Assembly: GCA_024641745.1 (NCBI GenBank)
Contig: JAHECL010000001.1
Location: forward strand, 29,846-93,845
Length of the DNA: 64,000 nt
Source of the DNA: Gemmatimonadota bacterium
GTDB taxonomy: Bacteria > Gemmatimonadota > Gemmatimonadetes > Gemmatimonadales > GWC2-71-9
Direction: 5' to 3'
A model generated the notes under the pieces. The model worked only from the letters and a program-made list of their open reading frames with translations, was not told the origin of the DNA and made no database searches. The translations under genes and the position numbers were made by a program. The first letter of the stretch is position 1, and every line of letters starts with the position of its first letter. This document shows, piece by piece, positions 6,878 to 29,263 of this stretch.

Positions 6878-7972
6878 ATGGCCCTCAGGACTCCCTCCCT
6901 CCGGCGCGTCGCCCGGTGGGTGCCAGCACTGTGTGTTGCCCTGGCCATGCTCGTGCTGGCCGGGTGCTCGCCGGACGGCTACCCGCAGACCACGCTGGCC
7001 CCCAAGGCGGACTTCGCGGAACTGCTCGACAAGGTGTTCCGGCGGTCCTTCCAGCTGGCCACCATCGTCTTCTTCCTGGTGGAGGGGGCGCTGGTCTGGG
7101 CCCTGTTCCGCTTCCGCGGCAAGCCGGGTGACGCCGAGCCGGAGCAGACCCACGGGAACGCGATGCTGGAGGTGGTCTGGACTGTCATTCCCGCCGTCAT
7201 CCTGGTCTTCATCGCCATCCCGACTATCCAGACGATCTTCAAGACCGCCGAGGCCCCCACCGACAACCCGCTCGTGATCGAGGTGACAGGTCACCAGTGG
7301 TGGTGGGAGTTCCGGTACCCCGAATACAACCTGGTCACCGCCGGCGACATGCATGTGCCGGTCGGCCGGACGGTCGACCTCCGGATGACCACCGGCGACG
7401 TGGTCCACAGCTTCTGGACCCCGCAGCTGGCCGGCAAGCGGGATGTCTTCCCGAAACGTGACAACCGGCTCTGGTTCCGGACGGAGACCGCCGGCCTCTA
7501 CCCTGGCCAGTGCGCCGAGTTCTGCGGCACCCAGCACGCGCGGATGGCGTTCCAGGTCGTGGCCCAGGAACCGGCCGAGTTTGACGCCTGGAGGACGGGG
7601 CTGGCGGCGGTCGGCGCGCCGGCAGACTCGGGGGCGCCCGCGCCCGACTCGCTGGTGGCCCAGGGCCAGCAGCTCTTCGCCATGAAGGGCTGCGTCGGCT
7701 GCCACATGGTCACGGCGGTGGGCGCCCCGACGATGGTCGGCCCGAACCTGGCCGGCATCGGGAGCCGGACGATGATCGCCTCGGGCTGGCTGCCCAACAC
7801 TGACGAGAACCTCGCCCGCTGGATCATGAACCCCCAGGCCGTGAAAGTGGGCGTCCTGATGCCCAATCTCGGCCTCAATGACGAAGAAGCCACGGCGCTG
7901 GTAGCGTACCTCCGGTCGCTCCGCGTGGCCCCTGCCCCTGCGGCGGTCGCGACGACCGCCGCCGGCAACTGA
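6878..7972 (+). CDS. ctaC: Cytochrome c oxidase subunit II with fused C-terminal cytochrome c (caa3 type)
   Basis: Lipoprotein-type signal (LVLAGCSP), two TM helices, the CuA motif HSFWTPQLAGKRD...CAEFCGTQHARM, and a C-terminal CVGCHM haem c site. Confidence 0.92.
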   Translation: MALRTPSLRRVARWVPALCVALAMLVLAGCSPDGYPQTTLAPKADFAELLDKVFRRSFQLATIVFFLVEGALVWALFRFRGKPGDAEPEQTHGNAMLEVVWTVIPAVILVFIAIPTIQTIFKTAEAPTDNPLVIEVTGHQWWWEFRYPEYNLVTAGDMHVPVGRTVDLRMTTGDVVHSFWTPQLAGKRDVFPKRDNRLWFRTETAGLYPGQCAEFCGTQHARMAFQVVAQEPAEFDAWRTGLAAVGAPADSGAPAPDSLVAQGQQLFAMKGCVGCHMVTAVGAPTMVGPNLAGIGSRTMIASGWLPNTDENLARWIMNPQAVKVGVLMPNLGLNDEEATALVAYLRSLRVAPAPAAVATTAAGN

Positions 7973-7986
7973 CGAGAGGGTACGCG

Positions 7987-9819
7987 ATGTCCACGATTGC
8001 GATGGGACATGCCGGGACGGAAGCCGCCCCTGCCGAGAAGAAGGGACTCTGGAGCTGGATCACGACCGTGGACCACAAGCGGATCGGGATCCTCTACGGA
8101 GTGACCGCCTTCCTCTTCTTCCTTATCGGCGGGCTCGAGGCGCTGCTGATCCGGTGGCAGCTCGGGGCGCCCGACAAGACCTTCCTCAGCCCCGAGGCGT
8201 ACAACCAGCTGTTCACCATGCACGGCACCACCATGATCTTCCTCGGGGTGATGCCGCTCTCGGCGATGTTCTTCAACTACTTCATCCCGCTCCAGATCGG
8301 CGCGCGGGACGTGGCGTTCCCGCGGCTCAATGCGTACAGCTACTGGGTCTTCCTCTTCGGCGGCCTCGTCCTGAACGCCAGCTTTCTGTTCAACGCCGCG
8401 CCGGACATGGGGTGGTTCGCCTACGCCAACCTGACCTCGAAGCAGTTCAGCCCCGGCCTGAACGTCGATTTCTGGATCATCGGCCTGCAGATTCTCGGCA
8501 TCGCCTCGCTGGCCGCGGCGGTGAACTTCTTCGTGACCATCATCAACCTCCGTGCGCCCGGCATGAAGATGATGCGGATGCCGATGTTCGTCTGGATGAG
8601 CCTCATCACCCAGGTCCTCCTGCTGCTCGCCTTCCCGATCATCACGGTGGCCCTGGTCCTGCTGATGCTCGACCGGAACTTCGGTACCCACTTCTTCGTG
8701 CCGAGCGGCGGCGGCGATCCGGTGCTCTGGCAGCACCTCTTCTGGCTCTTCGGCCATCCCGAGGTGTACATCCTCATCCTGCCGGCGTTCGGCGTGGTGT
8801 CGGAAATCCTGCCGGTCTTCTCGCGGAAGCCGCTCTTCGGGTATGCCGCGATGGTCTTCTCCGGCTGCTTCATCGCCTTCCTCGGGTTCGGCGTCTGGAG
8901 CCACCACATGTTCTCCACCGGCATGGGCCCGATGGCGGACACGGTGTTTTCGCTGGGAACGATGCTCATCGCCATCCCGACCGGCGTGAAGATCTTCAAC
9001 TGGATCGGCACTGTCTGGGGCGGCTCGATCCAGTACAAGACCCCGATGTACTTCGCCCTCGGCTTCGTGGCGATGTTCATCATCGGCGGCCTGTCGGGTG
9101 TCATGCACGCCTCCCCGCCGGCTGACCTGCAGCAGACCGACAGCTACTTCATCGTGGCGCACTTCCACTACGTGCTCTTCGGCGGCAGCATCTTCGCCCT
9201 CACCGCCGGCGCCTACTACTGGTTCCCGAAGATGACCGGCCGGATGCTGAGCGAGTCGCTCGGCAAGGTGCATTTCTGGCTGATGTTCCTCGGGTTCAAC
9301 CTGACCTTCGCGCCGATGCACATCCTCGGCCTGAACGGGATGCCGCGCCGGGTCTACACCTACTCCGCGGGCATGGGCTTCGAGTTCTGGAACGCCATCG
9401 AGACCGCCGGGTCGCTGGTCCTGGGCTTTTCCTTCCTGGTGTTCATCTGGAACATCCTCCGGTCGCTGAAGGCCGGCGAGGTGGCCCCGGCCGACCCGTG
9501 GCATGGCGCGACGCTCGAGTGGTCGATCCCCTCGCCGCCGCAGGAGTGGAATTTTGCGGTGGAGCCCACGGTGGACGGGCGGGATCCGCTCTGGGAAGAG
9601 CGCCGGGCGAAGGGCGGCACGCTGCCGGAGCCGGAGCGCGTCAGCGGTGCGGGCATCCACCTGCCGAGTCCCTCGTACTGGCCGATCGTGACCGCGTTCG
9701 GCACCGCGATGACGCTCGTCGGCTTCCTGATGCACGTCACCCTCTGGGTCATCCTGGCGGGCCTGGCGATCACCATGCTCGGCATCTTCTCGTGGGCCTT
9801 CGAGCCCGCGGACCACTAG
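7987..9819 (+). CDS. ctaD: Cytochrome c oxidase subunit I
   Basis: 610 aa with 12 or more TM helices. Classic haem-copper motifs WFFGHPEVYILILPAFG (here LFWLFGHPEVYILILPAFG) and HHMF, VAHFHYV. Confidence 0.95.
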   Translation: MSTIAMGHAGTEAAPAEKKGLWSWITTVDHKRIGILYGVTAFLFFLIGGLEALLIRWQLGAPDKTFLSPEAYNQLFTMHGTTMIFLGVMPLSAMFFNYFIPLQIGARDVAFPRLNAYSYWVFLFGGLVLNASFLFNAAPDMGWFAYANLTSKQFSPGLNVDFWIIGLQILGIASLAAAVNFFVTIINLRAPGMKMMRMPMFVWMSLITQVLLLLAFPIITVALVLLMLDRNFGTHFFVPSGGGDPVLWQHLFWLFGHPEVYILILPAFGVVSEILPVFSRKPLFGYAAMVFSGCFIAFLGFGVWSHHMFSTGMGPMADTVFSLGTMLIAIPTGVKIFNWIGTVWGGSIQYKTPMYFALGFVAMFIIGGLSGVMHASPPADLQQTDSYFIVAHFHYVLFGGSIFALTAGAYYWFPKMTGRMLSESLGKVHFWLMFLGFNLTFAPMHILGLNGMPRRVYTYSAGMGFEFWNAIETAGSLVLGFSFLVFIWNILRSLKAGEVAPADPWHGATLEWSIPSPPQEWNFAVEPTVDGRDPLWEERRAKGGTLPEPERVSGAGIHLPSPSYWPIVTAFGTAMTLVGFLMHVTLWVILAGLAITMLGIFSWAFEPADH

Positions 9820-9846
9820 ACACTCACGACTGAGACGGACGGTCCC

Positions 9847-10485
9847 TTGGCGCACGACACCGCACACGCGATGCATCCCCCGACGGCTACCGGGCTCGAC
9901 ACCCGGAAGCTGGCGATCTGGACGTTCATCGGGTCGGAATGCCTGTTCTTCGCGACCCTGATTTCGAACTATCTCGTGTACAAGGGGCAGAGCCTGGTCG
10001 GGCCGCTCCCGCACGAAACGTCCCAGTGCATGCTGCACGGCCAGATGGCCACCTGCGAGCCGATCTTCGAGATCCCGCTGGTCACCTTCGGCACCGCGGT
10101 CCTGCTCTTCAGCTCCTTCTTCGTGGTGCTGGCGCTCAACGGCGCGCAAAAGGGGAATCGGAAGCAGTTGATCGGCTGGCTCTCCGCCACCGTCCTCTGC
10201 GGCCTCTTCTTCGTCGGCATGCAGGTCTACGAGTTCTATCACTTCTTCCACAAGGGGCTGGGCTACACGACCAACCTCTTCGGGTCATCGTTCTACACGC
10301 TGACCGGGTTCCACGGCACCCACGTGACCCTCGGCGTGATCTGGCTCGCCACGGTGCTCGTCCTGGCCATCCGCGGGAAGTTGCCGCCGGAGAAGGCGCT
10401 GAACCTCGAGATCGCCGCGCTCTACTGGCACTTCGTGGACGTTGTCTGGATCGTGATCTTCCCCGTCGTCTACCTGATGAGGTGA
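9847..10485 (+). CDS. ctaE: Cytochrome c oxidase subunit III
   Basis: 212 aa polytopic protein. FYTLTGFHGTHVTLGVIWL and YWHFVDVVWIVIF are hallmark subunit III motifs. TTG start. Confidence 0.9.
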   Translation: MAHDTAHAMHPPTATGLDTRKLAIWTFIGSECLFFATLISNYLVYKGQSLVGPLPHETSQCMLHGQMATCEPIFEIPLVTFGTAVLLFSSFFVVLALNGAQKGNRKQLIGWLSATVLCGLFFVGMQVYEFYHFFHKGLGYTTNLFGSSFYTLTGFHGTHVTLGVIWLATVLVLAIRGKLPPEKALNLEIAALYWHFVDVVWIVIFPVVYLMR

Positions 10486-20278: not shown

Positions 20279-22189
20279 TTAGGCGGGGGAAGGAAGGACG
20301 GCCGCCCGGATGCGGCGGCGCTGGCCCGGGGTCAGCATGTCGCGCTCGATGATGCGCTTCACGACGCCGGCCACGAACCCGTACCCGCGGGCGTCGGAGG
20401 TGAGCCAGCGCTGCCATTCGAGCTCGTCCAGCGCAGCGCGGAGGCCGCTCGCCGGGAGTTCGGTCGCGCGGCCGAGGTGCTCCGGCGTCACCCGCCCACC
20501 GAGGGCCGCGGCCGCGGCCAGCGCCTGCTGTGCCGGCCCGGAGAGTCGCCGATAGCCGATCCGGACCGCCGCAACGACGGTGTCGGGCAACTCGCCGGGC
20601 GTCGTCTCGGTGAGCGTGTGAAACGGCTTGGGCCAGGTGCCCGATTCCTGGAGCAGGTCCAGCCCCGACGACACCGCATGCAGGATTTCGACGGCGAGCA
20701 GCGGCACGCCGGCGGAATCAGCCGCCACCCGGCGGGTGAGCCGATCGACGGCTTCTGCGACGTAGTTCGGGAAGACGGCCGCCGCCATCGCGCGCAGCGC
20801 CGCCTCGTCCAGCGGCTCGAGCTCGATGGCATCGCCAGGGATGTCCCGGCGCAGCAGGGTCCGCAACGCGTCCAGGGTCTCGCAGGGCGTGGTCGGTTCG
20901 GCGGTGAACAGCAGCAGCACCGGGGCGTCCGGCAGGTCGCGCGGCAGCGCGGCGAGGCTTTGGAGCGATTCCGGGTCGAGATGATGGCAGTCATCCACCA
21001 CGATGAGCATTGGCTGCTCTTCGACCGCGGCCCGAACCAGCTCGGTGAACGCCCGGGGCAGGGGGGCGGGTTCCACGTCGGCCGCGCCCCGGAACTTGTC
21101 TGCCCATTCGGGGATGTGGGCCGCGAATGCCGCGTGCGCCTCCGCCGGCGCCCCCGCGATCCCGGCGGTCCCGAGCAGCCCACTGCGGCCGAGGGCCAGG
21201 AGGCCGCTCCACGGGGAGGCCCGGTCCGCCTCGACACCGCGGACGGTGAGGACCGCGCCTCCATCCAGCGACACACGGCTCTCGACTTCCTCCGCGAGCC
21301 GGGTCTTCCCGAGCCCCGCGTCCGCCAGCACCACGGTCACTTCGGTCTGGCGGCCTCCGACGCAGCGGCGCCACGACTTCGACAGCCGCTCCATCGCATC
21401 TGCCCGTCCGGCGAGTGGCAGTCGGCGGGTCAGCGCCACGCGTGCTTCCAGGCTCTCCGGTGCGGGGCCCAGCCTGCCGTTCCTGATGCGATCCACGAGG
21501 CCCGACACCGTCACATCAGGCTCAACCCCCAGTCGCTCCTCGAGGGAATGCTTGTGCCCTTCGAAGCGCTGCAGCGCGGCAGCGCGATCGCCCGCGATCG
21601 TCAGGGCCCGCAGCAGCACATTGATGGCGGCTCCCGAGGTCGGCAGCATCGCGTGGGCGCGCTCGCCGAGCCGCACGCTTTCCAGGGTCGCGCCGCTGGA
21701 CAGCGCCAGGTCAGCGGCCTCGACGAGTGCGGTGACCGCGCGGCGTTCCCACTGGGTCCGCTCGGCGGTGAGCCAGTCCTCGAACCCGGATTCTCCCGGG
21801 ACGGCGAACCCTTCCATCAGCGTGCCATCGACCAGGGCCGCCGCGGCCGCCCAGTCCTTCGCGGTTTCGCACGCGGCGAAGGCGTCGAGGTCGAGCGCCA
21901 CCGCGCCAGGTTCGATTCGTATCGAGATGGGGTCGGTGTGAATCGCCCCCTCCCCCAGGGCGCGCCGCAGCACACGCAGCGCCTCGTTGAGCGAGTGCCG
22001 GGCGGCGGATTCCTGACTGGCTCCCCAGAGCAGGCCGGTCAGGTGTTCCCGACTGCGGGTGTGCCGGGGCGAAAGGGCGAGGTAGGCCAGGAGCGCCAGG
22101 TTCTTCTTCCACAACAACTCGGCCGGCGGTGGCGCTCCGTCCACCGTGACCTCGACGGAGCCCAGGAGTCGGAGCGCGATCATCGGCAT
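20279..22189 (-). CDS. SARP/AfsR-type regulator: winged-helix + BTAD + AAA/STAND-like ATPase
   Basis: Trimmed to the ATG at 22189 or 22183 (MPMIALRLLGSVEV). N-terminal OmpR-like wHTH, then a BTAD region (LDLDAF...RALTIAGDRAAALQRFEGHKHSLEERLGVEP). Walker A LADAGLGKTRL and Walker B MLIVVDDCHHLD. The start overlaps the kinase stop. Confidence 0.75.
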   Translation of the reverse strand: MPMIALRLLGSVEVTVDGAPPPAELLWKKNLALLAYLALSPRHTRSREHLTGLLWGASQESAARHSLNEALRVLRRALGEGAIHTDPISIRIEPGAVALDLDAFAACETAKDWAAAAALVDGTLMEGFAVPGESGFEDWLTAERTQWERRAVTALVEAADLALSSGATLESVRLGERAHAMLPTSGAAINVLLRALTIAGDRAAALQRFEGHKHSLEERLGVEPDVTVSGLVDRIRNGRLGPAPESLEARVALTRRLPLAGRADAMERLSKSWRRCVGGRQTEVTVVLADAGLGKTRLAEEVESRVSLDGGAVLTVRGVEADRASPWSGLLALGRSGLLGTAGIAGAPAEAHAAFAAHIPEWADKFRGAADVEPAPLPRAFTELVRAAVEEQPMLIVVDDCHHLDPESLQSLAALPRDLPDAPVLLLFTAEPTTPCETLDALRTLLRRDIPGDAIELEPLDEAALRAMAAAVFPNYVAEAVDRLTRRVAADSAGVPLLAVEILHAVSSGLDLLQESGTWPKPFHTLTETTPGELPDTVVAAVRIGYRRLSGPAQQALAAAAALGGRVTPEHLGRATELPASGLRAALDELEWQRWLTSDARGYGFVAGVVKRIIERDMLTPGQRRRIRAAVLPSPA

Positions 22190-25098
22190 CCCTCCGTGTG
22201 CAGCGACTCCATCCGCTCCCGGGCCGCGGTCAGGGAGGCGTCGGCGTCGTGCCAGAGCTCCCTGACCCTCGTGAGCATGCGACAGGCACGGTCCCGTTCC
22301 CCCGCGGTGAGCAAGAGGCGGGCGTGGTCCACCCGGGCGGCCACACTCGCCACGGCGTCCACTTCCATCTTCTGTGCCTCCCCGGTCGGAAAGCCATAGG
22401 TGTCGGAGTTCTCGTACCAGAGAATCTCGCGCAGCGCCTCGTCTGGCCGGTCCGTTGCCTCGAACCACCGGGCTCGCGACAGGTGCAACAGACTCCGTGC
22501 GAAGATGTCATGACCCGGAATCGGCGAATCCCAGCCGAGCAACTCGGCGGAGCTGGTCAGCGCGGCTCGCGGGTCGTCGGCACCCTGGAGAATCGCCGTG
22601 GCCAGCCGCGCCAGGTGAGCGGTGCTGCTGTCGGCGATGCCGAGACGGGCGAGCGCCGACACCAGGGTGGCCGCGGTCGCCGTATCGCCTCGACGAAGGG
22701 CGTCGAGCGCAAGTGTCCATGTCGCGCGGTCGGGATGCGCGCCCCCGGTCGCCTCAGCCACGAGCCAGCGCCTGGCCGAGGCCTCCTCCGCCTCTCCCGC
22801 GCGGCCTGCGCCAAGCACTGGCAGCATGAGCCGCCATTGATGCCGCTGGAGCGTCGCCTCAGGGGTCTTGAAGAGCGCCGCGGCCGAGTCGATGTAGGCG
22901 AGGCCGGGCGAGACCTGTCCCCAGGTGAGGTGCGCCAGGCCTCTCGCCTCGAGTCCGCTGGCCCGGTCGGTCGAGAGGAGGCGGGACGCCAGGATGGCGC
23001 CGACCTTGTCCTGGCCCTCCGGAGCGTCGAAGGTGGCGCTGAAGCGGAAGAACCTTGCGAGCAGCCGGAGATCCTCGGCGTCGCTGAAATGTTCGAGGTA
23101 CCAGAGCTTCGCCCGCGCCCGCCACGGTACCCAGCGGATGTCGTATCCGAGCTGCAGGAAGGCCACGATGGGGGACTTGACGGTCGCGCGCGCGTTGAGC
23201 CGCTGCCGCTCCGCAAGCCAGCCGCGGGCGGCATCCCGGGCACCGAGGCGTGTCTTGCCCCACACGAGGTGGTCATATGCAGGAAACGGCACGCCGCCCT
23301 GGCTGGTCTGGACCGCTCCCTCGAACCGGTCGAGCGACACGGAGAGGTCGCGCCCGAGCAATGGTCCACGATGGAATTGCTCGCTTGCGTAGAGCAGGAG
23401 GAAAGGGCTGACGTCGGAGTATGCCGCGGCCAGCGCGTCGAACGCGGCGAATCGCCGCACCAGGTTCGGCTCGGCCATCGCCCGGACCAGTCCCGACTCC
23501 AGCGGGGGGAGCTGATCTGCGCAGCAGGCCGCAAGCTGGGCGACATCTTCCCACGAGTATTGGCGCGCCCACACCCTGGCGACCACCATCCGCCAGCGCG
23601 AGAGCACGAACGTCGTGTCGAGCCTGGACGCCGCCAGGAACGACTCCGCGGCCGACTCCCACTCGTCGTCATCGAACAGGGCCTCGCCCCGAAAGAAGAC
23701 CAGGGCGGCCTCGGGGTTGCGACTGGCAAGGTTCCGTGCATCGCCGACGGGGCGGCCGCTCACCTGCGTCCCGATGGCGAGTGCGGCCAGCCGGCCGAGA
23801 TCGCTCGATTGGCTTGTGCTGTTGACCTCGATGGCCGGCAGCGGTGTGCTGCCCGTCGAGTCCGTGATGGTCAGCGTGAGGGTCAGCGTGTTCTCCCTCG
23901 CTTCGATGAGGCCGGTCACCACCCGATCCACATCGAGCGCCTGACGCGCCGCGGCCGGCCCGTCCATCGGGTGCGTCTGTTGCCAGGCCGCTGAGCGCGG
24001 ATAGGACGCCCTGCTCAGTTGCGGGAAGTAGGCGAGGTTGATGTCGGTGGCGGCCGAGACATTCAGGCCGAGTGAGTCATCCGATCCCCCGAACGCGGCA
24101 AAGGGCAGCACGGCGATCGATCGATGATTGCCTGACTTCCTGGGCGGTAACAGGGCGCGGACGACCGCTCCGGCCACCAGGAGCGCCGCCACTCCGACGC
24201 CTGCCAGGAGGAGGCGCCTGCGGCCGTTCTTCTTCCGGTCGAACGCACGCCGCACCGCATCCATCGAGGGCCATCGCTCGGCGGGATCTGCGGCGAGGGC
24301 GCGCTTGAGCACCGACGCCATCGGTCCCGGCACGCCGCGCCAGTCGGCGCTGGATGGGGCCGCAATCGCCTTCCATGGCCGTCCGCATGCCGCCTGGTAC
24401 AGCACCGCGGCACCGGAGTACTGGTCCGACCGCTCCGTCGCGGGTTCCCCGCGCAGCTGCTCGGGGGACATGTAGCCCCGGGTGCCAAGCAGCGACCCTT
24501 CCCCGGTCAGTTCGCGATCATCATGCGTCTCGTCCCGCGCGATGCCGAAGTCACCGAGGAGTGCACGGCCACGGACGAAGAAGATGTTGTGCGGCTTCAC
24601 GTCGCGGTGGATGATGCCGGCCCCGTGCGCGGCGGCGAGGGCCCGGAGCAGGTCGTGGCCGAGCCGGGTCAGGTCGGCCAGGGGGAATGGCCCGGCGGCC
24701 AGCCGATCGGCGAGGGTCTGACCCTCGATGAAGTCCATCACGTAGAAGGGGAGGCCATCGCGCTCGTCGGCACGGTGGACGGGGACGATGTTCGGGTGCT
24801 GCAGCCGGGCGAGGAGTCGCGCCTCCTGGAGGAAGCGCTCCCGCGCGACCGCGGTGGCCAGCTCGGGTCGCAGCACCTTGATGGCGACCTGCCGGTCGAG
24901 CGCCACCTCCCGGGCACGGAACACGATGCCCATGCCTCCGGCGGCGAGTCGGCCGTCCAACTCGAACTCAGGCTCCAGCGCTTGTTGCAGCCGTTCCAGC
25001 AGTGGGTCGTCCAAGCCGCCTCGCCAGGCCACGGGAGTAGTGCAGGCCGAGGGAACGGGGGGAAGCCCTAATGTTGGGTCCGCTGAGGGGCGCGTCAA
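22180..25098 (-). CDS. Membrane Ser/Thr protein kinase with a large extracytoplasmic/TPR-like C-terminal region
   Basis: Hanks kinase motifs GGMGIVFRA, VAIKVL, HRDVKPHNIF, DFGIA and GTRGYMSPEQ. A single TM helix (LLLAGVGVAALLVAGAVV), then SIAVLPFAAFG (TolB-N-like module) and about 600 aa of helical repeats. Confidence 0.9.
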   Translation of the reverse strand: MTRPSADPTLGLPPVPSACTTPVAWRGGLDDPLLERLQQALEPEFELDGRLAAGGMGIVFRAREVALDRQVAIKVLRPELATAVARERFLQEARLLARLQHPNIVPVHRADERDGLPFYVMDFIEGQTLADRLAAGPFPLADLTRLGHDLLRALAAAHGAGIIHRDVKPHNIFFVRGRALLGDFGIARDETHDDRELTGEGSLLGTRGYMSPEQLRGEPATERSDQYSGAAVLYQAACGRPWKAIAAPSSADWRGVPGPMASVLKRALAADPAERWPSMDAVRRAFDRKKNGRRRLLLAGVGVAALLVAGAVVRALLPPRKSGNHRSIAVLPFAAFGGSDDSLGLNVSAATDINLAYFPQLSRASYPRSAAWQQTHPMDGPAAARQALDVDRVVTGLIEARENTLTLTLTITDSTGSTPLPAIEVNSTSQSSDLGRLAALAIGTQVSGRPVGDARNLASRNPEAALVFFRGEALFDDDEWESAAESFLAASRLDTTFVLSRWRMVVARVWARQYSWEDVAQLAACCADQLPPLESGLVRAMAEPNLVRRFAAFDALAAAYSDVSPFLLLYASEQFHRGPLLGRDLSVSLDRFEGAVQTSQGGVPFPAYDHLVWGKTRLGARDAARGWLAERQRLNARATVKSPIVAFLQLGYDIRWVPWRARAKLWYLEHFSDAEDLRLLARFFRFSATFDAPEGQDKVGAILASRLLSTDRASGLEARGLAHLTWGQVSPGLAYIDSAAALFKTPEATLQRHQWRLMLPVLGAGRAGEAEEASARRWLVAEATGGAHPDRATWTLALDALRRGDTATAATLVSALARLGIADSSTAHLARLATAILQGADDPRAALTSSAELLGWDSPIPGHDIFARSLLHLSRARWFEATDRPDEALREILWYENSDTYGFPTGEAQKMEVDAVASVAARVDHARLLLTAGERDRACRMLTRVRELWHDADASLTAARERMESLHTEGCR

Positions 25099-25137
25099 GC
25101 GTGGGGGAGAACGAGGCGGCGCCTCGGGTGCGCTGGC

Positions 25138-25539
25138 CTATTTCGTCGCCGGGTGGCTCAACGTCCAGACGTAGGCCGCCACCGCCTTCACCTGGGCCTC
25201 CGAAATGGTGCTGCCACCCTTCGGCGGCATCACGATACCGCTCTTCGATTCCTTTGCCGGAACGCCCGTCGTGACCTGCTGGACGATCTCGGCGTAGCTC
25301 CCCTTGGAGTGGAGCCAGGTGCCGTCGGTCAGGTTCGGGCCGACCCCGCCCTTGCCGTCCGGTCCGTGGCAGGCGAAGCAGATCCCCGCGCCCTTGAAGA
25401 TCCCGGCGCCTTCGGTGACCATCGCCGGCGTGACGCCCTCGGGAAGCGATGTGGCAGCTTGCGCCTCGGCCTGGGACGCCATGCAGGCGCCCCAGGTCAG
25501 TACGACGACGATGGCGCGGGACAGCGGGCTGGCGATCAT
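25138..25539 (-). CDS. Periplasmic class I c-type cytochrome
   Basis: Signal peptide, a single CFACHG haem site, and a distal Met in GIVMPPKGG. Confidence 0.85.
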   Translation of the reverse strand: MIASPLSRAIVVVLTWGACMASQAEAQAATSLPEGVTPAMVTEGAGIFKGAGICFACHGPDGKGGVGPNLTDGTWLHSKGSYAEIVQQVTTGVPAKESKSGIVMPPKGGSTISEAQVKAVAAYVWTLSHPATK

Positions 25540-25550
25540 CGTGTCACCTC

Positions 25551-26759
25551 TCAGAACGCAGTCGTGAAGCCGGCGGTCAGCCGGTTCAGTTCGCGAAAGA
25601 ACTCATAGCCATATTCGCCGTAGAGCCGGAAGTTGCGGTACACCAGGTACCCCCCGCCCACGGCGATCGACTCGTACCGGTCCAGCCCGACGGGAGTGCC
25701 GAGCTTGACGTTCAGGACCGGTGCGCTGGCCTCGATGTAATTGTACAGCCCGTATCCATACCAGCGGCTCCCCACGGGGCGCACCAGGAGTTCGGCGAAT
25801 CCGCCGTCGGTGTCCACCAGGGGCTCGCCAGGGATGAAGTTGGCCTCGGTGTCGTTCCGGGAGACGTACTGCAGGTTCAGCTCGAACACCCCCGCGGCGA
25901 GGGTCGCATCCGCCCCCCACATGGTGATCGCATTGTTCTGGTCGGGGAATCCGTATGCCTCCCCGTTCTGCCGGCCCGTGTACCCCAGGAGGCCGAGGCG
26001 GACATGATCGCCGAAGTCACGGGTGAGATGCCCGAACAGGTTCTTGTTCGCGTCGTTGTCGTACCGGAGCAATTCGTTCGCAGCGGGAATGCCGTCCCCG
26101 TTGACCAGGGAGGCGGTCAGGGTGAAGCCGGCCAGGTCCGCGGAGGCCATGACCCCCCGGTCATAGGTGAGGTTCGCCGGCTGCAGCCCGACCAGCACCT
26201 TGTAGATCGCGTAGTCCTGCACTTCGAGCCGGAGCTCCCGCTTGTACACCGGGTCGGACACCTGGAACTGTCCGAAGACGAGATCGACCGGCGCACCGCC
26301 GATGTCGTTCCAGTGGATGAAGGCGTCTTCGACTCCCGCCACCTCGCCGCGTTCCGCAAGGAGGAAGTAGATGTAGTACGAGAGCTTCTTCGAGAGCGTG
26401 CCGCCGGAGAGGAGTTTGAGGTTGTAGGGCAGCTGGAAGTCGGTGGCCGCGTTGCCGTCGGCGTACAGCTGCGCGTAGGCGTCGAGGCGAAGTGCGAGCG
26501 GGAGGCTCGCGGGGAGTGTCAGAAGGTCATCGCCGGTCGCGATGGTGTCGCGCGGCTCTTCATCGAAGGCCATCCGGAAGCCGTTGCCCGCAAACTCGTT
26601 GCCGAAGGCAGTGAGTGCGGGGAAGGGATTGTGGCAGAGCGAGCAGCTGACCCGATACTTGCGGGCGAACACCGGCAGGGCCAGGAGTGCGGACGGCGCG
26701 GTCAGGGCCAGCAGCAGGGCCACGGAAGCGCCGCGGATGGCGGTGCGGGCAGACGGCAT
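25551..26759 (-). CDS. Predicted outer-membrane beta-barrel protein with an N-terminal CxxCH haem-binding motif
   Basis: The track ORF 25551..27227 is trimmed to the ATG at 26759 (GGAGGA 5 nt upstream; alternative start at 26786). Signal peptide ...LLALPVFA, then RKYRVSCSLCHNPFPALTAFGNEF. Alternating amphipathic strands continue to the C-terminus AGFTTAF, a terminal aromatic typical of OMPs. Confidence 0.6.
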   Translation of the reverse strand: MPSARTAIRGASVALLLALTAPSALLALPVFARKYRVSCSLCHNPFPALTAFGNEFAGNGFRMAFDEEPRDTIATGDDLLTLPASLPLALRLDAYAQLYADGNAATDFQLPYNLKLLSGGTLSKKLSYYIYFLLAERGEVAGVEDAFIHWNDIGGAPVDLVFGQFQVSDPVYKRELRLEVQDYAIYKVLVGLQPANLTYDRGVMASADLAGFTLTASLVNGDGIPAANELLRYDNDANKNLFGHLTRDFGDHVRLGLLGYTGRQNGEAYGFPDQNNAITMWGADATLAAGVFELNLQYVSRNDTEANFIPGEPLVDTDGGFAELLVRPVGSRWYGYGLYNYIEASAPVLNVKLGTPVGLDRYESIAVGGGYLVYRNFRLYGEYGYEFFRELNRLTAGFTTAF

Positions 26760-26857
26760 TGCTCCTCCACGACGACGGTTCGACATCCTCCACCCGAAGA
26801 ATGCCCGGCGGAGGATGAAGAAAGGAGGAACAGGCGCTGAAGAATGCTGGAGGGACC

Positions 26858-28144
26858 CTACTCGAACCGATGGAGCTCGACGCGCCGATTTCGTTCCCGC
26901 CCCTCGGCGGTCAGGTTGGAGGCGATCGGGTCGGCGGGGCCGTATCCGAGGGCCGTCAGCCGGTCGGCAGGGATCCCCGCCGCGACCAGGTAGGCGCGCA
27001 CTGACTGCGCGCGCGCCAGCGACAGTCGCTCGTTCACCGCACGGCTTCCGGTGTCGTCGGTGTATCCGGCGACCTCGATGCGCACCGAAGGCGCGGCGAG
27101 CAGCGAGGTGGCGGTGGCGCGCAGGGACGCCCTCGCCGCCGGGGACAGCTCGGCGCTCCCCGACTCGAAGGTGACATCGCCCAGCACCAGGCGCGCGGGT
27201 GCCGGCGGCGGGGTCGGTCTCGGACACCCCAGCGCCTCCACCGCCACACCGGGCGCGGTGCCGGGGCAGCGGTCCCGCTCATCAGGCACGCCGTCGCCGT
27301 CCGAATCGGGGAACGGCCGGCCCGCCGGGCACCCGAAGGGGTCGGTCTCGGTTCCCGGTGGTGTGGCGGGGCAACGATCGAGCGCGTTCGCCACGCCGTC
27401 GCCATCCAGGTCGGCACTGCAGCCGGTGAGATCCACCAGCTGGCCCGCCGGGGTGCCGGGGCACTGGTCACCACCATCGATGACGCCGTCTCCGTCGCTG
27501 TCCCGCGGCAGCAGGCAGCCCGTCGGGTCCACCGGTGCATCCCGCGCGGTGCCGGGGCACCGGTCCTCGGCGTTGGGGACACCGTCCCGATCGCTGTCCC
27601 GGGGCGTGAGGCGGCCGGCGTACACCGAGAGGCCCGCCTGGGCGCCGATGGTCCAGGTGCGATTCGCGGTGCTGCCCGGCTCGGCGAGGTAATCGGCGGT
27701 GCCCTCAAGGCGAAGTCCCAGTCGCGGGCCGAACCCGAACCGGAAGCCGACCAGCCCCCCCGGCCCCTCTTCCCGCAGGGCGAGCCCGCGGGAAAACCGG
27801 CTCTGGGAGTACCCGATGCCGAAGAGGGCGGTCGTCCGGCCCTGCAGCGGCAGGTGAACGAGCAACCGGCCGGTCACGCTGCTGGCCTCGACCGACGTCG
27901 AGTCGGGGAGGTTGCTGACGGAATAGCTGCCGGCCAGTTCCAGACTGAGCTTCCGGGTGACGAAGAACCCCACCTCGGCGCCAATCCCGATCCCGTTGTC
28001 GAGCGCGAGGGAATCGGGATAGAAGGAGTACCGTGCCATCGGGACGAGCTCGATGGTCGTTCCGTGCTGTGCGGCGGCCAGGCCTGGCGATCCGAACGCC
28101 AGGGCGGCCGCGGCGATCACGGCGGCGAGGGTGTGACGTGGCAT
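26858..28144 (-). CDS. OmpA-family outer-membrane protein with thrombospondin type 3 Ca-binding repeats
   Basis: Start taken at the ATG at 28144 (MPRHTLAAVIAAAALAFG). An N-terminal barrel, then four DxDxDGVxDxxDxCPxT repeats. C-terminal OmpA_C motif VAGYTDDTGSRAVNERLSLARAQSV. Confidence 0.85.
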   Translation of the reverse strand: MPRHTLAAVIAAAALAFGSPGLAAAQHGTTIELVPMARYSFYPDSLALDNGIGIGAEVGFFVTRKLSLELAGSYSVSNLPDSTSVEASSVTGRLLVHLPLQGRTTALFGIGYSQSRFSRGLALREEGPGGLVGFRFGFGPRLGLRLEGTADYLAEPGSTANRTWTIGAQAGLSVYAGRLTPRDSDRDGVPNAEDRCPGTARDAPVDPTGCLLPRDSDGDGVIDGGDQCPGTPAGQLVDLTGCSADLDGDGVANALDRCPATPPGTETDPFGCPAGRPFPDSDGDGVPDERDRCPGTAPGVAVEALGCPRPTPPPAPARLVLGDVTFESGSAELSPAARASLRATATSLLAAPSVRIEVAGYTDDTGSRAVNERLSLARAQSVRAYLVAAGIPADRLTALGYGPADPIASNLTAEGRERNRRVELHRFE

Positions 28145-28234
28145 CGGGGAAAGATACCGCCGCCCCGCCGCGCGGGCGATGGCGGGGGACACTAGATTGA
28201 GGGACGTTCATCGCATCCCTCATGGAGCCGGAAG

Positions 28235-29263
28235 ATGATCCAGGTCAATCCCCGTCAGCGGCGAGCCGCCGCCCTGATCATCCTGCTGGGCATTGCCATC
28301 GTCCTCGCGCTCTCCCCCTTCATGTCCGGGCTCCTCGCCGCCCCCGTCTTCTACGTCATCTTCGAGCCGCTCTATGCGCGGTTTGCCCGGCGCGCGAGAC
28401 CGTCGCTGAGCGCGGGGTTGACGGTCTTCGTGGCGGTGCTCCTGATCCTGGTGCCCGGCTCGTGGCTGCTCGCGATGATCGTGGGGCAGGCGCAGGATGT
28501 GGTGACCAGCCTGGTCAGGAGTCCGCTGCTCGGCCGGCTCCAGGACCTCACGATCGGTGGCTACGCCGTCGGTCCGGAGCTGGTGAAGCTGGGGCAGACG
28601 GTGGTCGGCGGCATCGGCCGCGGGGCGTTTGCGGCGGTCGGCACCGCCACGCTGATGGCGTTCAACCTCGCCATCGCCTTCTTCGTCCTCTATTTCATGC
28701 TGGTGACGGAAGGGCGGGCGTGGCTGGTGATTCGCCCGTACATCCCGTTCAGTACCGCGAGCGCCGAGCTGCTCCGGGAGCGGTTCCGCGCCGTCACCAT
28801 CTCGACCGTCATCGGCACGGGGGTGACCGCCACCATCCAGGGCGTCCTGGTCGGGATGGCGTTCACCGTGACCGGGCTGCCCAACGCCGCCTTCTGGGGG
28901 GTCGTCACCGTCGTCTTCGCCATCCTCCCGGTCGTCGGCAGCGGGCTCATCTGGATCCCGGCGGCGGTCGCGCTCTACCTCGAGGGCGCGCACGGCTATG
29001 CGATTGGGATGGTCGCCTTCGGTGCCATCGTGGTCGGGAACATCGACAACGTCATCCGGCCGATCGTCTTCCGGCGGTGGGCGCAGACCCACCCGCTCAT
29101 CACGATTCTCGGCGCCTTTGCCGGCGTGCGCTATCTCGGCCTCCTCGGCCTCCTCATCGGCCCGCTCGCGCTTTCCTACTTCTTTGAGCTCGTACGGATG
29201 TACAACGAAGAGTATGTCAGCCTCAGCGGCGAGGATCGGCCGTCGCAGACGCCCTCCGCTTGA
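28235..29263 (+). CDS. AI-2E family transporter (PerM/UPF0118)
   Basis: 342 aa with about 8 TM helices. GxxxxxGLPNAAFWGVV ... NIDNVIRP is the characteristic region. Confidence 0.85.
   Translation: MIQVNPRQRRAAALIILLGIAIVLALSPFMSGLLAAPVFYVIFEPLYARFARRARPSLSAGLTVFVAVLLILVPGSWLLAMIVGQAQDVVTSLVRSPLLGRLQDLTIGGYAVGPELVKLGQTVVGGIGRGAFAAVGTATLMAFNLAIAFFVLYFMLVTEGRAWLVIRPYIPFSTASAELLRERFRAVTISTVIGTGVTATIQGVLVGMAFTVTGLPNAAFWGVVTVVFAILPVVGSGLIWIPAAVALYLEGAHGYAIGMVAFGAIVVGNIDNVIRPIVFRRWAQTHPLITILGAFAGVRYLGLLGLLIGPLALSYFFELVRMYNEEYVSLSGEDRPSQTPSA

What the first reader, a model, noticed from the sequence alone, without database searches (positions are those of the whole stretch)
25138..28144. Envelope operon: OmpA with TSP3 repeats, a beta-barrel carrying a CxxCH haem motif, and a soluble cytochrome c
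Three same-strand genes have short gaps. The middle protein has a signal peptide. Right after the predicted cleavage site comes RKYRVSCSLCHNPFPALTAFGNEF, a canonical haem c attachment site. About 370 aa of alternating strand-like sequence follow, ending in ...AGFTTAF, the terminal-Phe signature of outer-membrane barrels. A barrel with its own covalently bound haem, encoded next to a periplasmic mono-haem cytochrome, would be a minimal fused porin-cytochrome. That differs from the known MtrAB/PioAB arrangement, which uses separate multihaem and barrel proteins. It could mediate electron exchange across the outer membrane or haem/iron handling.
Basis: partly seen in the sequence, partly recalled or inferred. 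Interest (0 to 1): 0.66.

Follow-up and report, generated by a model that had tools for sequence, protein, structure and literature searches.

The report
Cyc2-type fused cytochrome-porin gene
The middle gene encodes an outer-membrane barrel with its own haem-binding site, but this design is already known as Cyc2, the candidate iron-oxidising protein of many bacteria, so this is an unannotated new member and not a new kind of system.

Summary
Three minus-strand genes encode an OmpA/TSP3 protein (26858-28144), a 402-aa protein (25551-26759) and a 133-aa monohaem cytochrome c (25138-25539).

The middle protein has a signal peptide, then ALPVFARKY-RVS-CSLCH-NPF-PAL. AlphaFold2 predicts a confident 16-strand beta-barrel (pLDDT 87.5) ending in Phe. 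Its best structural matches are V. cholerae OmpT and the phosphate porins OprP and OprO.

The "minimal fused porin-cytochrome" is not new. The N-terminus matches the published defining motif of Cyc2 exactly (AxPxFAR[Q/K][T/Y]...CXXCH...PXL; Keffer 2021). The length, single haem site and 16-strand OprP-like barrel also fit. Cyc2 is a fused monohaem cytochrome-porin and an Fe(II) oxidase in Acidithiobacillus, Mariprofundus and Leptospirillum.

CxxCH is kept in 155 of 156 full-length homologs. A scan of reference genomes finds the motif in many phyla. Cyc2 homologs have already been reported in Gemmatimonadota, the source phylum here.

The downstream cytochrome c is a frequent partner (41 of 97 loci). 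The OmpA gene is adjacent only in close relatives. Iron oxidation in this heterotroph-type lineage is inferred, not shown.

Verdict: new member of a known kind, low interest.

The parts
25551..26759 (-). cyc2 homolog: 402-aa fused monohaem cytochrome-porin precursor (stop codon included)
   Evidence: ORF and start codon context. No Pfam or NCBIfam hit. 3174 homologs; 1566 representatives at E<=1e-3. Matches the Cyc2 diagnostic motif.
26679..26759 (-). Signal peptide, residues 1-27 (MPSARTAIRGASVALLLALTAPSALLA)
   Evidence: Read directly from the sequence: basic n-region, hydrophobic core, AxA-like end. AF2 gives helix 4-19 followed by a low-confidence linker 21-28. A27 is conserved in 132/148 family members. 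SignalP was not available.
26613..26681 (-). Cyc2 cytochrome motif, residues 27-49: A-L-P-V-F-A-R-K-Y-RVS-CSLCH-NPF-P-A-L
   Evidence: Exact match to AXPXFAR[Q/K][T/Y]...CXXCH...PXL (PMC8406198). One match in the window and none in 100 shuffles. P29, A32, R33, Y35, C39, C42, H43, P47, L49 and G53 are invariant in 111 aligned homologs.
26631..26645 (-). CSLCH haem c attachment site (C39-H43)
   Evidence: Sequence. CxxCH is present in the first 90 residues of 155/156 full-length homologs found by similarity.
25554..26495 (-). 16-strand beta-barrel porin domain (residues 89-402), C-terminal Phe
   Evidence: AF2 model m5f606d2451d0. Foldseek PDB top hits are OmpT 6ehe (3.8e-13), OprP 2o4v (2.2e-12) and OprO 4rjw (2.6e-11).
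25138..25539 (-). Periplasmic monohaem class I cytochrome c (133 aa; CFACH at 25366..25380). Likely electron acceptor of the Cyc2 homolog; Cyc1-like in position.
   Evidence: Pfam PF13442 and PF00034. 11-nt gap to cyc2. Orthologs lie downstream of cyc2 in other Gemmatimonadota loci (E 1e-19 to 1e-45). A CxxCH ORF lies directly downstream in 41/97 motif loci.
26858..28144 (-). OmpA-family protein: N-terminal small barrel, TSP3 repeats, C-terminal OmpA domain. An upstream neighbour, probably not a functional part of the module.
   Evidence: Pfam. Adjacent only in 83%-identity relatives L001-L003 and in L124. Replaced by HSP20, aconitase or other genes at 57-59% identity.

Best explanation
The middle gene encodes a member of the Cyc2 family, an outer-membrane 16-strand porin with an N-terminal monohaem c-type cytochrome module fused to it.

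Shown here:
- The diagnostic Cyc2 motif, a single conserved CxxCH, a signal peptide, a confident 16-strand OprP/OprO-like barrel and a C-terminal Phe.
- Profile-level homology to the Acidithiobacillus-type and Mariprofundus sequences.
- A frequently co-located periplasmic cytochrome c gene.

Inferred by analogy with the characterised Cyc2 proteins (A. ferrooxidans Cyc2, Mariprofundus Cyc2PV-1, Leptospirillum Cyt572):
- The precursor is exported by Sec, and haem is attached in the periplasm by the cytochrome c maturation system.
- The barrel inserts in the outer membrane with the small cytochrome module at or in its periplasmic mouth.
- Dissolved Fe2+ enters the pore and reduces the haem.
- The electron passes to the soluble 133-aa cytochrome c encoded 11 nt downstream, and from there to a terminal oxidase. 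A caa3 oxidase whose subunit II carries a cytochrome c domain lies 15 kb away in the window.
- Fe(III) is therefore formed outside the periplasm.

Confidence is about 0.93 that this is a Cyc2-family fused cytochrome-porin, and about 0.5 that its physiological substrate is Fe(II).
For: - Motif: ALPVFARKY-x3-CSLCH-x3-PAL matches the published AXPXFAR[Q/K][T/Y] / CXXCH / PXL definition. It aligns with the Cyc2PV-1 peptide QTGAACLSCHFQTFPALNAFGR in 10 of 21 positions with one gap.
- Size: 402 aa, above the 365-aa family cut-off.
- Haem site: CxxCH is kept in 155/156 full-length homologs.
- Structure: AF2 gives a 16-strand barrel, pLDDT 87.5. Foldseek top hits include OprP 2o4v and OprO 4rjw, the same templates reported for Cyc2PV-1.
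- Homology to known Cyc2 types: hhalign of the window family against the Acidithiobacillus-type group gives 99.1% probability, E 1.3e-18; against a Mariprofundus sp. sequence it gives 98.8%. The window protein aligns over its full length at 33-36% identity with a family that includes a Gallionellaceae protein.
- Gene order: the Acidithiobacillus locus L027 has cyc2 followed by a dihaem cytochrome, the order of the first two rus-operon genes as I recall it.
- Partner cytochrome: 41/97 motif loci have a CxxCH ORF directly downstream, and the partner is orthologous across Gemmatimonadota.
- Prior reports: Cyc2 homologs have been reported in Gemmatimonadota MAGs. L088, a MAG whose isolate name (Dive96) matches a sampling site of one of those studies, is 42.5% identical.
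Against: - No biochemical or expression data exist for this protein or its roughly 400-aa subfamily.
- The closest named relatives are Gemmatimonadales MAGs, a lineage not known to oxidise iron.
- Keffer et al. warn that function should not be transferred to distant Cyc2 homologs without context.
- The cluster (1, 2 or 3) was not assigned, because the FeGenie HMMs and the reference tree were unavailable.
- Barrel peptides of Cyc2PV-1 found no match in my set.
- No oxidase, rusticyanin or carbon-fixation genes sit next to the locus. The caa3 oxidase is 15 kb away and may simply be housekeeping.
- Two of four relatives at 57-59% identity lack the downstream cytochrome c.
- No conserved distal haem ligand (Met or His) was found.
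Confidence: 0.6

Rival explanations
1. It is a Cyc2-family fused cytochrome-porin, but Fe(II) oxidation for energy is not its job in this heterotroph-type lineage. It might exchange electrons with other soluble extracellular donors or acceptors (humic or quinone shuttles, Mn, chelated Fe(III)), or oxidise Fe2+ only as detoxification.
For: - The literature states that Cyc2 may have additional functions and that distant homologs need verification.
- Most new Cyc2-like sequences occur in putative heterotrophs.
- The marine Gemmatimonadota study could not tell iron oxidation from iron reduction.
- Genomic neighbours vary: aconitase, HSP20, thioredoxin, rhodanese, and cupredoxins 4 kb away.
Against: - All three biochemically tested Cyc2 proteins oxidise Fe(II).
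- The narrow OprP-like pore inferred for Cyc2 favours small ions over organic shuttles.
- The cytochrome motif is fully conserved, which suggests conserved chemistry.
Confidence: 0.3
2. OmpA/TSP3, the barrel and the cytochrome c form one dedicated three-gene envelope operon. In it the Ca-binding, peptidoglycan-anchored OmpA protein is a functional partner of the haem barrel.
For: The three genes share a strand with a 98-nt gap. No terminator or promoter match lies between OmpA and cyc2. The arrangement is kept in three relatives at 83% identity. One Chlorobiota locus (L124) also has an OmpA-domain ORF directly upstream.
Against: At 57-59% identity the upstream gene is HSP20, aconitase, a LysR regulator or something else. 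Only 2 lineages among about 120 motif loci show an OmpA-like upstream ORF. OmpA/TSP3 proteins are common stand-alone envelope proteins.
Confidence: 0.07
3. It is an ordinary anion or phosphate porin whose N-terminal CxxCH is incidental, carries no haem, or serves haem or iron uptake.
For: The best structural matches are general and phosphate porins. There is no direct evidence of haem attachment.
Against: CxxCH and 9 flanking positions are invariant across 111 homologs at 30-88% identity, and CxxCH is present in 155/156. There is no Pfam Porin_O_P or other porin-family hit and no PDB sequence relative. A c-type cytochrome is the recurrent neighbour.
Confidence: 0.03

Closest known systems
Cyc2 fused cytochrome-porin family (Cyc2PV-1 of Mariprofundus ferrooxydans, Cyc2 of Acidithiobacillus ferrooxidans, Cyt572 of Leptospirillum)
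   Same: - Signal peptide, then AxPxFAR[Q/K][T/Y]-CXXCH-PXL, a single haem site, and a roughly 16-strand OprO/OprP-like barrel over 365 aa with a C-terminal aromatic residue.
- Often followed by a periplasmic c-type cytochrome gene.
- Profile homology of 99% probability to the Acidithiobacillus-type group.
   Different: - Shorter (402 aa, against about 430-490 aa in the Gallionellaceae-type family and in the Acidithiobacillus and Mariprofundus sequences recovered here).
- It belongs to a compact subfamily shared with Ignavibacteria, Melioribacteraceae, Chloroherpeton, Kapabacteria and Longimicrobiales (41-49% identity).
- It has 3 rather than 4 residues between CXXCH and PAL compared with the Cyc2PV-1 peptide.
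- Its partner is a monohaem cytochrome, not the dihaem one found downstream at the Acidithiobacillus locus.
- It is not embedded in a rus-like oxidase operon.
- The host is a Gemmatimonadales-type organism, presumably heterotrophic, with no demonstrated iron oxidation.
MtrAB / MtoAB / PioAB porin-cytochrome complexes
   Same: An outer-membrane barrel combined with c-type haem to move electrons across the outer membrane.
   Different: Those systems use a separate decahaem cytochrome threaded through a 26-strand barrel. Here there is one polypeptide, one haem and 16 strands, and no multihaem gene is adjacent.
Phosphate/pyrophosphate porins OprP and OprO (PDB 2o4v, 4rjw) and general 16-strand porins (OmpT, OmpU, OmpC)
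   Same: Barrel fold and strand number. Foldseek E 1e-11 to 1e-13, TM about 0.55.
   Different: 11-17% identity, no Pfam porin-family hit and no PDB sequence hit. These porins have no N-terminal cytochrome module.

Membership tests
Cyc2 fused cytochrome-porin | N-terminal signal peptide | tested here: met
   Basic n-region (R5, R9), hydrophobic core 11-26, ALLA|L site. AF2 helix 4-19. Read from the sequence only; no SignalP run.
Cyc2 fused cytochrome-porin | Single CXXCH haem-binding motif near the N-terminus | tested here: met
   CSLCH at residues 39-43 is the only CxxCH in the protein. Conserved in 155/156 full-length homologs.
Cyc2 fused cytochrome-porin | AXPXFAR[Q/K][T/Y] motif upstream of CXXCH, stated to be unique to Cyc2 | tested here: met
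   A27-L-P-V-F-A-R-K-Y35. The FAR-x5-C spacing is the same as in the Cyc2PV-1 peptide.
Cyc2 fused cytochrome-porin | PXL motif downstream of CXXCH | tested here: met
   P47-A-L49, with Pro as the 4th residue after His. The Cyc2PV-1 peptide has Pro as the 5th, a one-residue difference.
Cyc2 fused cytochrome-porin | Length of at least 365 aa | tested here: met
   402 aa.
Cyc2 fused cytochrome-porin | 16-strand beta-barrel porin domain structurally like OprO/OprP | tested here: met
   AF2 gives 16 strands, pLDDT 87.5. Foldseek finds 2o4v and 4rjw among the top 4.
Cyc2 fused cytochrome-porin | Sequence similarity to known Cyc2 (published blastp cut-off 1e-5) | tested here: met
   - phmmer: 1.4e-11 to a Mariprofundus sp. 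protein and 2.9e-7 to an Acidithiobacillus sp. protein, against a small database.
- hhalign: 99.1% and 98.8% probability.
- The anchors are MAG proteins, not the biochemically tested sequences themselves.
Cyc2 fused cytochrome-porin | Match to a FeGenie Cyc2 HMM and placement in Cluster 1, 2 or 3 of the reference tree | not testable with these tools
   The HMMs and reference alignment were not available. UPGMA on identities groups the window protein with the Gallionellaceae-, Chlorobiota- and Ignavibacteria-type sequences and apart from the Acidithiobacillus type. This is not a phylogeny.
Cyc2 fused cytochrome-porin | Covalent haem, outer-membrane location, Fe(II) oxidase activity | not testable with these tools
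   Requires expression, haem staining, fractionation and Fe(II) assays.
MtrAB/MtoAB/PioAB porin-cytochrome complex | Separate multihaem (decahaem) cytochrome plus 26-strand porin | tested here: not met
   One CxxCH and 16 strands. The only other CxxCH proteins in the window are the 133-aa monohaem cytochrome and CoxB.
OprO/OprP phosphate-selective porins (Pfam Porin_O_P) | Sequence membership in the porin family | tested here: not met
   No Pfam or NCBIfam hit at E<=0.1. A profile search of PDB sequences finds no porin. Only the fold is similar.

The most novel reading that the evidence does not exclude
The compact (about 400-aa) Cyc2 subfamily shared by Gemmatimonadota and the Ignavibacteria/Chlorobi-related lineages, paired with its own monohaem cytochrome c, may not be a dedicated lithotrophic iron oxidase. 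It may instead be a general outer-membrane redox gate that lets abundant soil and sediment heterotrophs harvest or dump electrons on soluble extracellular species (Fe2+, chelated Fe, humic shuttles). That would make cryptic iron or shuttle redox cycling a common heterotroph trait.
Probability: 0.2. Interest if true: 0.55.

Novelty: new member of a known kind. Interest (0 to 1): 0.2.

Why it matters
Cyc2 is the main genetic marker used to infer microbial Fe(II) oxidation. This gene adds one more unannotated member, labelled 'hypothetical protein' and missed by Pfam and NCBIfam, in a Gemmatimonadales genome.

The practical value is annotation. The locus should be labelled as a Cyc2-like fused cytochrome-porin plus a periplasmic cytochrome c. 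It also illustrates how widespread the family is in phyla not known as iron oxidisers.

It does not open a new mechanism. The open question, whether such homologs in heterotrophs really oxidise iron, is already recognised in the field.

Tried and rejected
- Pfam and NCBIfam scans of the middle protein gave no hit.
- A profile search of PDB sequences found nothing relevant.
- The afdb50 fold library was unavailable. I therefore could not match the model to annotated AlphaFold Cyc2 entries.
- The look-up of encoding contigs on the 100%-identical protein P0001 had no record. I used relatives at 83% and 57-59% identity instead.
- The promoter and terminator scan of 24900-28400 was uninformative: no promoter, and one terminator-like site upstream of the ompA start at the level seen in shuffles.
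- I tested whether OmpA/TSP3 is a conserved partner and rejected it.
- I tried to anchor the barrel to the validated Cyc2PV-1 with its published tryptic peptides. Only the haem peptide matched family members, and not the window protein itself at blastp-short thresholds.
- My genome scan forced 3 residues between CH and PxL, so it excluded PV-1-like sequences, which have 4. Conservation of the motif within the 120 scanned loci is circular for that reason. The independent evidence is the similarity-based set.
- I searched for a conserved distal haem ligand and found none.
- Model coordinates were not retrievable, so the haem position relative to the barrel lumen could not be measured.
Full report
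**What is there**

The window is about 70% G+C. On the minus strand between 25138 and 28144 lie three genes.

- The first, 26858..28144, encodes a 428-aa protein with a signal peptide. Pfam finds an N-terminal small OMP barrel (OMP_b-brl), three thrombospondin type-3 repeat stretches (E 3.3e-14) and a C-terminal OmpA peptidoglycan-binding domain (E 9.7e-23).
- After a 98-nt gap comes a 402-aa ORF, 25551..26759, whose ATG is preceded by GGAGGAGCA.
- Eleven nucleotides after its stop starts a 133-aa protein, 25138..25539. It has a signal peptide, CFACH and a VMPP segment, and it hits Cytochrome_CBB3 (PF13442) and Cytochrom_C (PF00034).

**The middle protein**

It has no Pfam or NCBIfam match. 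Its N-terminus reads MPSARTAIRGASVALLLALTAPSALLA | LPVFARKYRVSCSLCHNPFPALTAFGNEF, and its C-terminus is ...AGFTTAF.

A search of 5.8 billion proteins returns 3174 homologs. The closest named ones are all 'hypothetical protein' from Gemmatimonadales or Gemmatimonadota MAGs. An exhaustive HMMER search of 1.84 billion cluster representatives gives 1566 at E<=1e-3 and 100 at E<=1e-30.

Among the 156 full-length homologs retrieved by similarity, 155 keep a CxxCH in the first 90 residues, always with the same spacing to an upstream FAR. In a 111-sequence alignment spanning 30-88% identity, P29, A32, R33, Y35, C39, C42, H43, P47, L49 and G53 are invariant. Invariant positions continue along the whole barrel.

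**Structure**

AlphaFold2 on that alignment gives a confident model: mean pLDDT 87.5 and pTM 0.83. It has a signal helix (4-19), a small N-terminal module with short helices (30-35, 51-58; pLDDT 67-83, modelled without haem) and 16 beta-strands between residues 89 and 401.

Foldseek against the PDB returns 16-strand porins. The top four include V. cholerae OmpT (6ehe, 3.8e-13), OprP (2o4v, 2.2e-12) and OprO (4rjw, 2.6e-11). No solved structure is a sequence relative. The second refutation test (not a barrel) also fails. Model coordinates were not retrievable, so I could not place the haem site relative to the lumen.

**What it is**

The architecture and the motif are those of Cyc2. Keffer et al. 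2021 (PMC8406198) describe Cyc2 as follows:

- a signal peptide and a single CXXCH;
- a fused 16-strand porin with structural homology to OprO and OprP (4RJW, 2O4V);
- a family-defining AXPXFAR[Q/K][T/Y] motif before the CXXCH, said to be unique to Cyc2;
- a PXL motif after the CXXCH;
- a minimum length of 365 aa.

The window protein reads A-L-P-V-F-A-R-K-Y, RVS, CSLCH, NPF, P-A-L. That is an exact match, and it is 402 aa long.

The tryptic haem peptide of the biochemically validated Cyc2PV-1 is QTGAACLSCHFQTFPALNAFGR (Table S1). It aligns to KYRVSCSLCH-NPFPALTAFGN in 10 of 21 positions. The spacing from FAR to the first Cys is identical, and there is one residue fewer before PAL.

Profile-profile comparison of the window family with the 'FARQTG' group gives 99.1% probability, E 1.3e-18. 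That group contains an Acidithiobacillus sp. protein whose gene is followed by a dihaem cytochrome, the same order as the first two rus-operon genes as I recall that operon. The confident part of the alignment covers the signal peptide, the cytochrome module and the first strands. A Mariprofundus sp. sequence gives 98.8%. The weak conservation of the barrel is itself a described property of the family.

**Distribution**

I back-translated the motif into a pattern of about 42 bits. It occurs once in the window and in none of 100 shuffles.

All 120 hits encode the motif in frame. The median ORF length is 437 aa, and 68 of 95 long complete ORFs end in Phe.

Hosts include Acidobacteriota, Gemmatimonadota, Nitrospirota (including Ca. 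Nitrospira defluvii), Zetaproteobacteria/Mariprofundus, Acidithiobacillus, Betaproteobacteria, Gammaproteobacteria, Myxococcota, Ignavibacteria, Chlorobiota, Eisenbacteria and Krumholzibacteriia.

The window protein belongs to a compact subfamily of about 390-416 aa. Its members include other Gemmatimonadota (47-60% identity), Longimicrobiales, Melioribacteraceae, Ignavibacteria, Chloroherpeton and Kapabacteria (41-49%). It is 33-36% identical over its full length to a family of about 430 aa that includes a Gallionellaceae protein, and about 19% identical to the Acidithiobacillus type.

I could not assign it to the published Clusters 1-3, because the FeGenie HMMs and the reference tree were not available.

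The published record already lists Cyc2 homologs in Gemmatimonadota (PMC9769843; PMC11316326). A MAG whose isolate name (Dive96_bin3.88) matches the 'Dive96' sampling site of the first of those studies carries a 42.5%-identical member of the same subfamily.

**Neighbours**

The cytochrome c gene directly downstream is a recurrent partner.

- It is present in relatives at 83% identity (L001-L003).
- It is present in two of four relatives at 57-59% identity. L004 has two copies next to a Rieske/cytochrome b and multihaem cluster, and L125 has one. L126 and L127 have none.
- Orthologs (E 1e-19 to 1e-45) follow cyc2 in other Gemmatimonadota and Longimicrobiales loci.
- Across all motif loci with room downstream, 41 of 97 have a CxxCH ORF immediately downstream on the same strand. 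It is often dihaem, as at the Acidithiobacillus locus.

The OmpA/TSP3 gene is different. It is adjacent only in the 83%-identity relatives and in one Chlorobiota locus. Elsewhere it is replaced by unrelated genes. I regard it as a neighbour and not a component, although co-transcription here is not excluded. No promoter or terminator match lies in the 98-nt gap.

**Most likely mechanism**

By analogy with characterised Cyc2 proteins, I infer the following chain:

1. The precursor is exported.
2. Haem c is attached to C39 and C42, with H43 as the axial ligand.
3. The barrel inserts in the outer membrane with the small cytochrome module at its periplasmic mouth.
4. Dissolved Fe2+ entering the narrow pore reduces the haem.
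5. The electron passes to the soluble monohaem cytochrome c and on to a terminal oxidase.

The window encodes a caa3-type oxidase at 6881..10485, and its subunit II has a C-terminal cytochrome c domain. It is a plausible sink, but it is not linked to the locus.

The architecture, the conservation and the partner gene are shown here. Haem attachment, localisation, substrate and direction of electron flow are inferred.

Keffer et al. caution against transferring function to distant homologs, and the host lineage is not a known iron oxidiser. I therefore put family membership at about 0.93 and Fe(II) oxidation as the physiological role at about 0.5. The main rival (about 0.3) is a Cyc2-family protein with another redox partner or a detoxifying role. 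A haem-less ordinary porin, a haem or iron uptake role, and an obligatory three-gene OmpA operon are all unlikely.

**Novelty and verdict**

The contrast it drew with MtrAB/PioAB is the same contrast made in the Cyc2 literature.

This is a new, unannotated member of a known kind, in a phylum where homologs have already been noted. The remaining value is annotation: neither Pfam nor NCBIfam covers the family. The locus also bears on a question the field already recognises, namely whether Cyc2 homologs in heterotrophic phyla oxidise iron. Interest is low, about 0.2.

Noticed in passing
window 6881..10485 (+): A caa3-type cytochrome c oxidase cluster: CoxB with a fused C-terminal cytochrome c domain (CVGCH), CoxA and CoxC (Pfam COX2+Cytochrom_C, COX1, COX3). 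It lies about 15 kb from the cyc2 locus and is a possible but unlinked electron sink. Only three CxxCH proteins are encoded in plausible genes of the window.
   Followed up: partly
window 20279..25098 (-), compared with L001-L003 11616..18683: In this window the cytochrome c gene is followed directly by a 972-aa Ser/Thr kinase and a BTAD/AAA_16 regulator. In relatives at 83% identity, about 7 kb of other genes (ABC transporter, GntR, ECF sigma and anti-sigma) lie between the cytochrome c gene and a large Pkinase-domain gene that may be the counterpart (orthology not checked). This suggests an indel or rearrangement next to the locus.
   Followed up: no
window 25554..26759 (-), protein residues 27-90: Across 148 Cyc2-family sequences, no Met or His other than the CxxCH His is conserved at 50% or more. 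The sixth haem ligand of this family cannot be read from the sequence.
   Followed up: partly
L011, L042, L044, L051, L098 (Gemmatimonadota/Gemmatimonadales genome contigs): Gemmatimonadota genomes carry several very divergent Cyc2 types (17-24% identity to the window protein) that fall in different similarity clusters, including the Acidithiobacillus-like 'FARQTG' type. The phylum has therefore acquired or kept the family more than once.
   Followed up: partly
L004 12206..21194 and L126 11352..13191: In a 59%-identity relative, cyc2 and two cytochrome c genes sit beside a Rieske/cytochrome b (with a fused cytochrome c) and several multihaem cytochrome genes. In a 57%-identity relative, large cupredoxin-domain proteins lie 4 kb downstream. 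Both hint at varied electron-transfer wiring.
   Followed up: no
Keffer 2021 Table S1 compared with window residues 43-49: The Cyc2PV-1 haem peptide has four residues between CXXCH and PAL, whereas the window protein, the Gallionellaceae-type representative P0187 and the 120 genome-scan hits (which were selected with that spacing) have three. Any motif-based scan with fixed spacing, including mine, will miss one of the two classes.
   Followed up: partly
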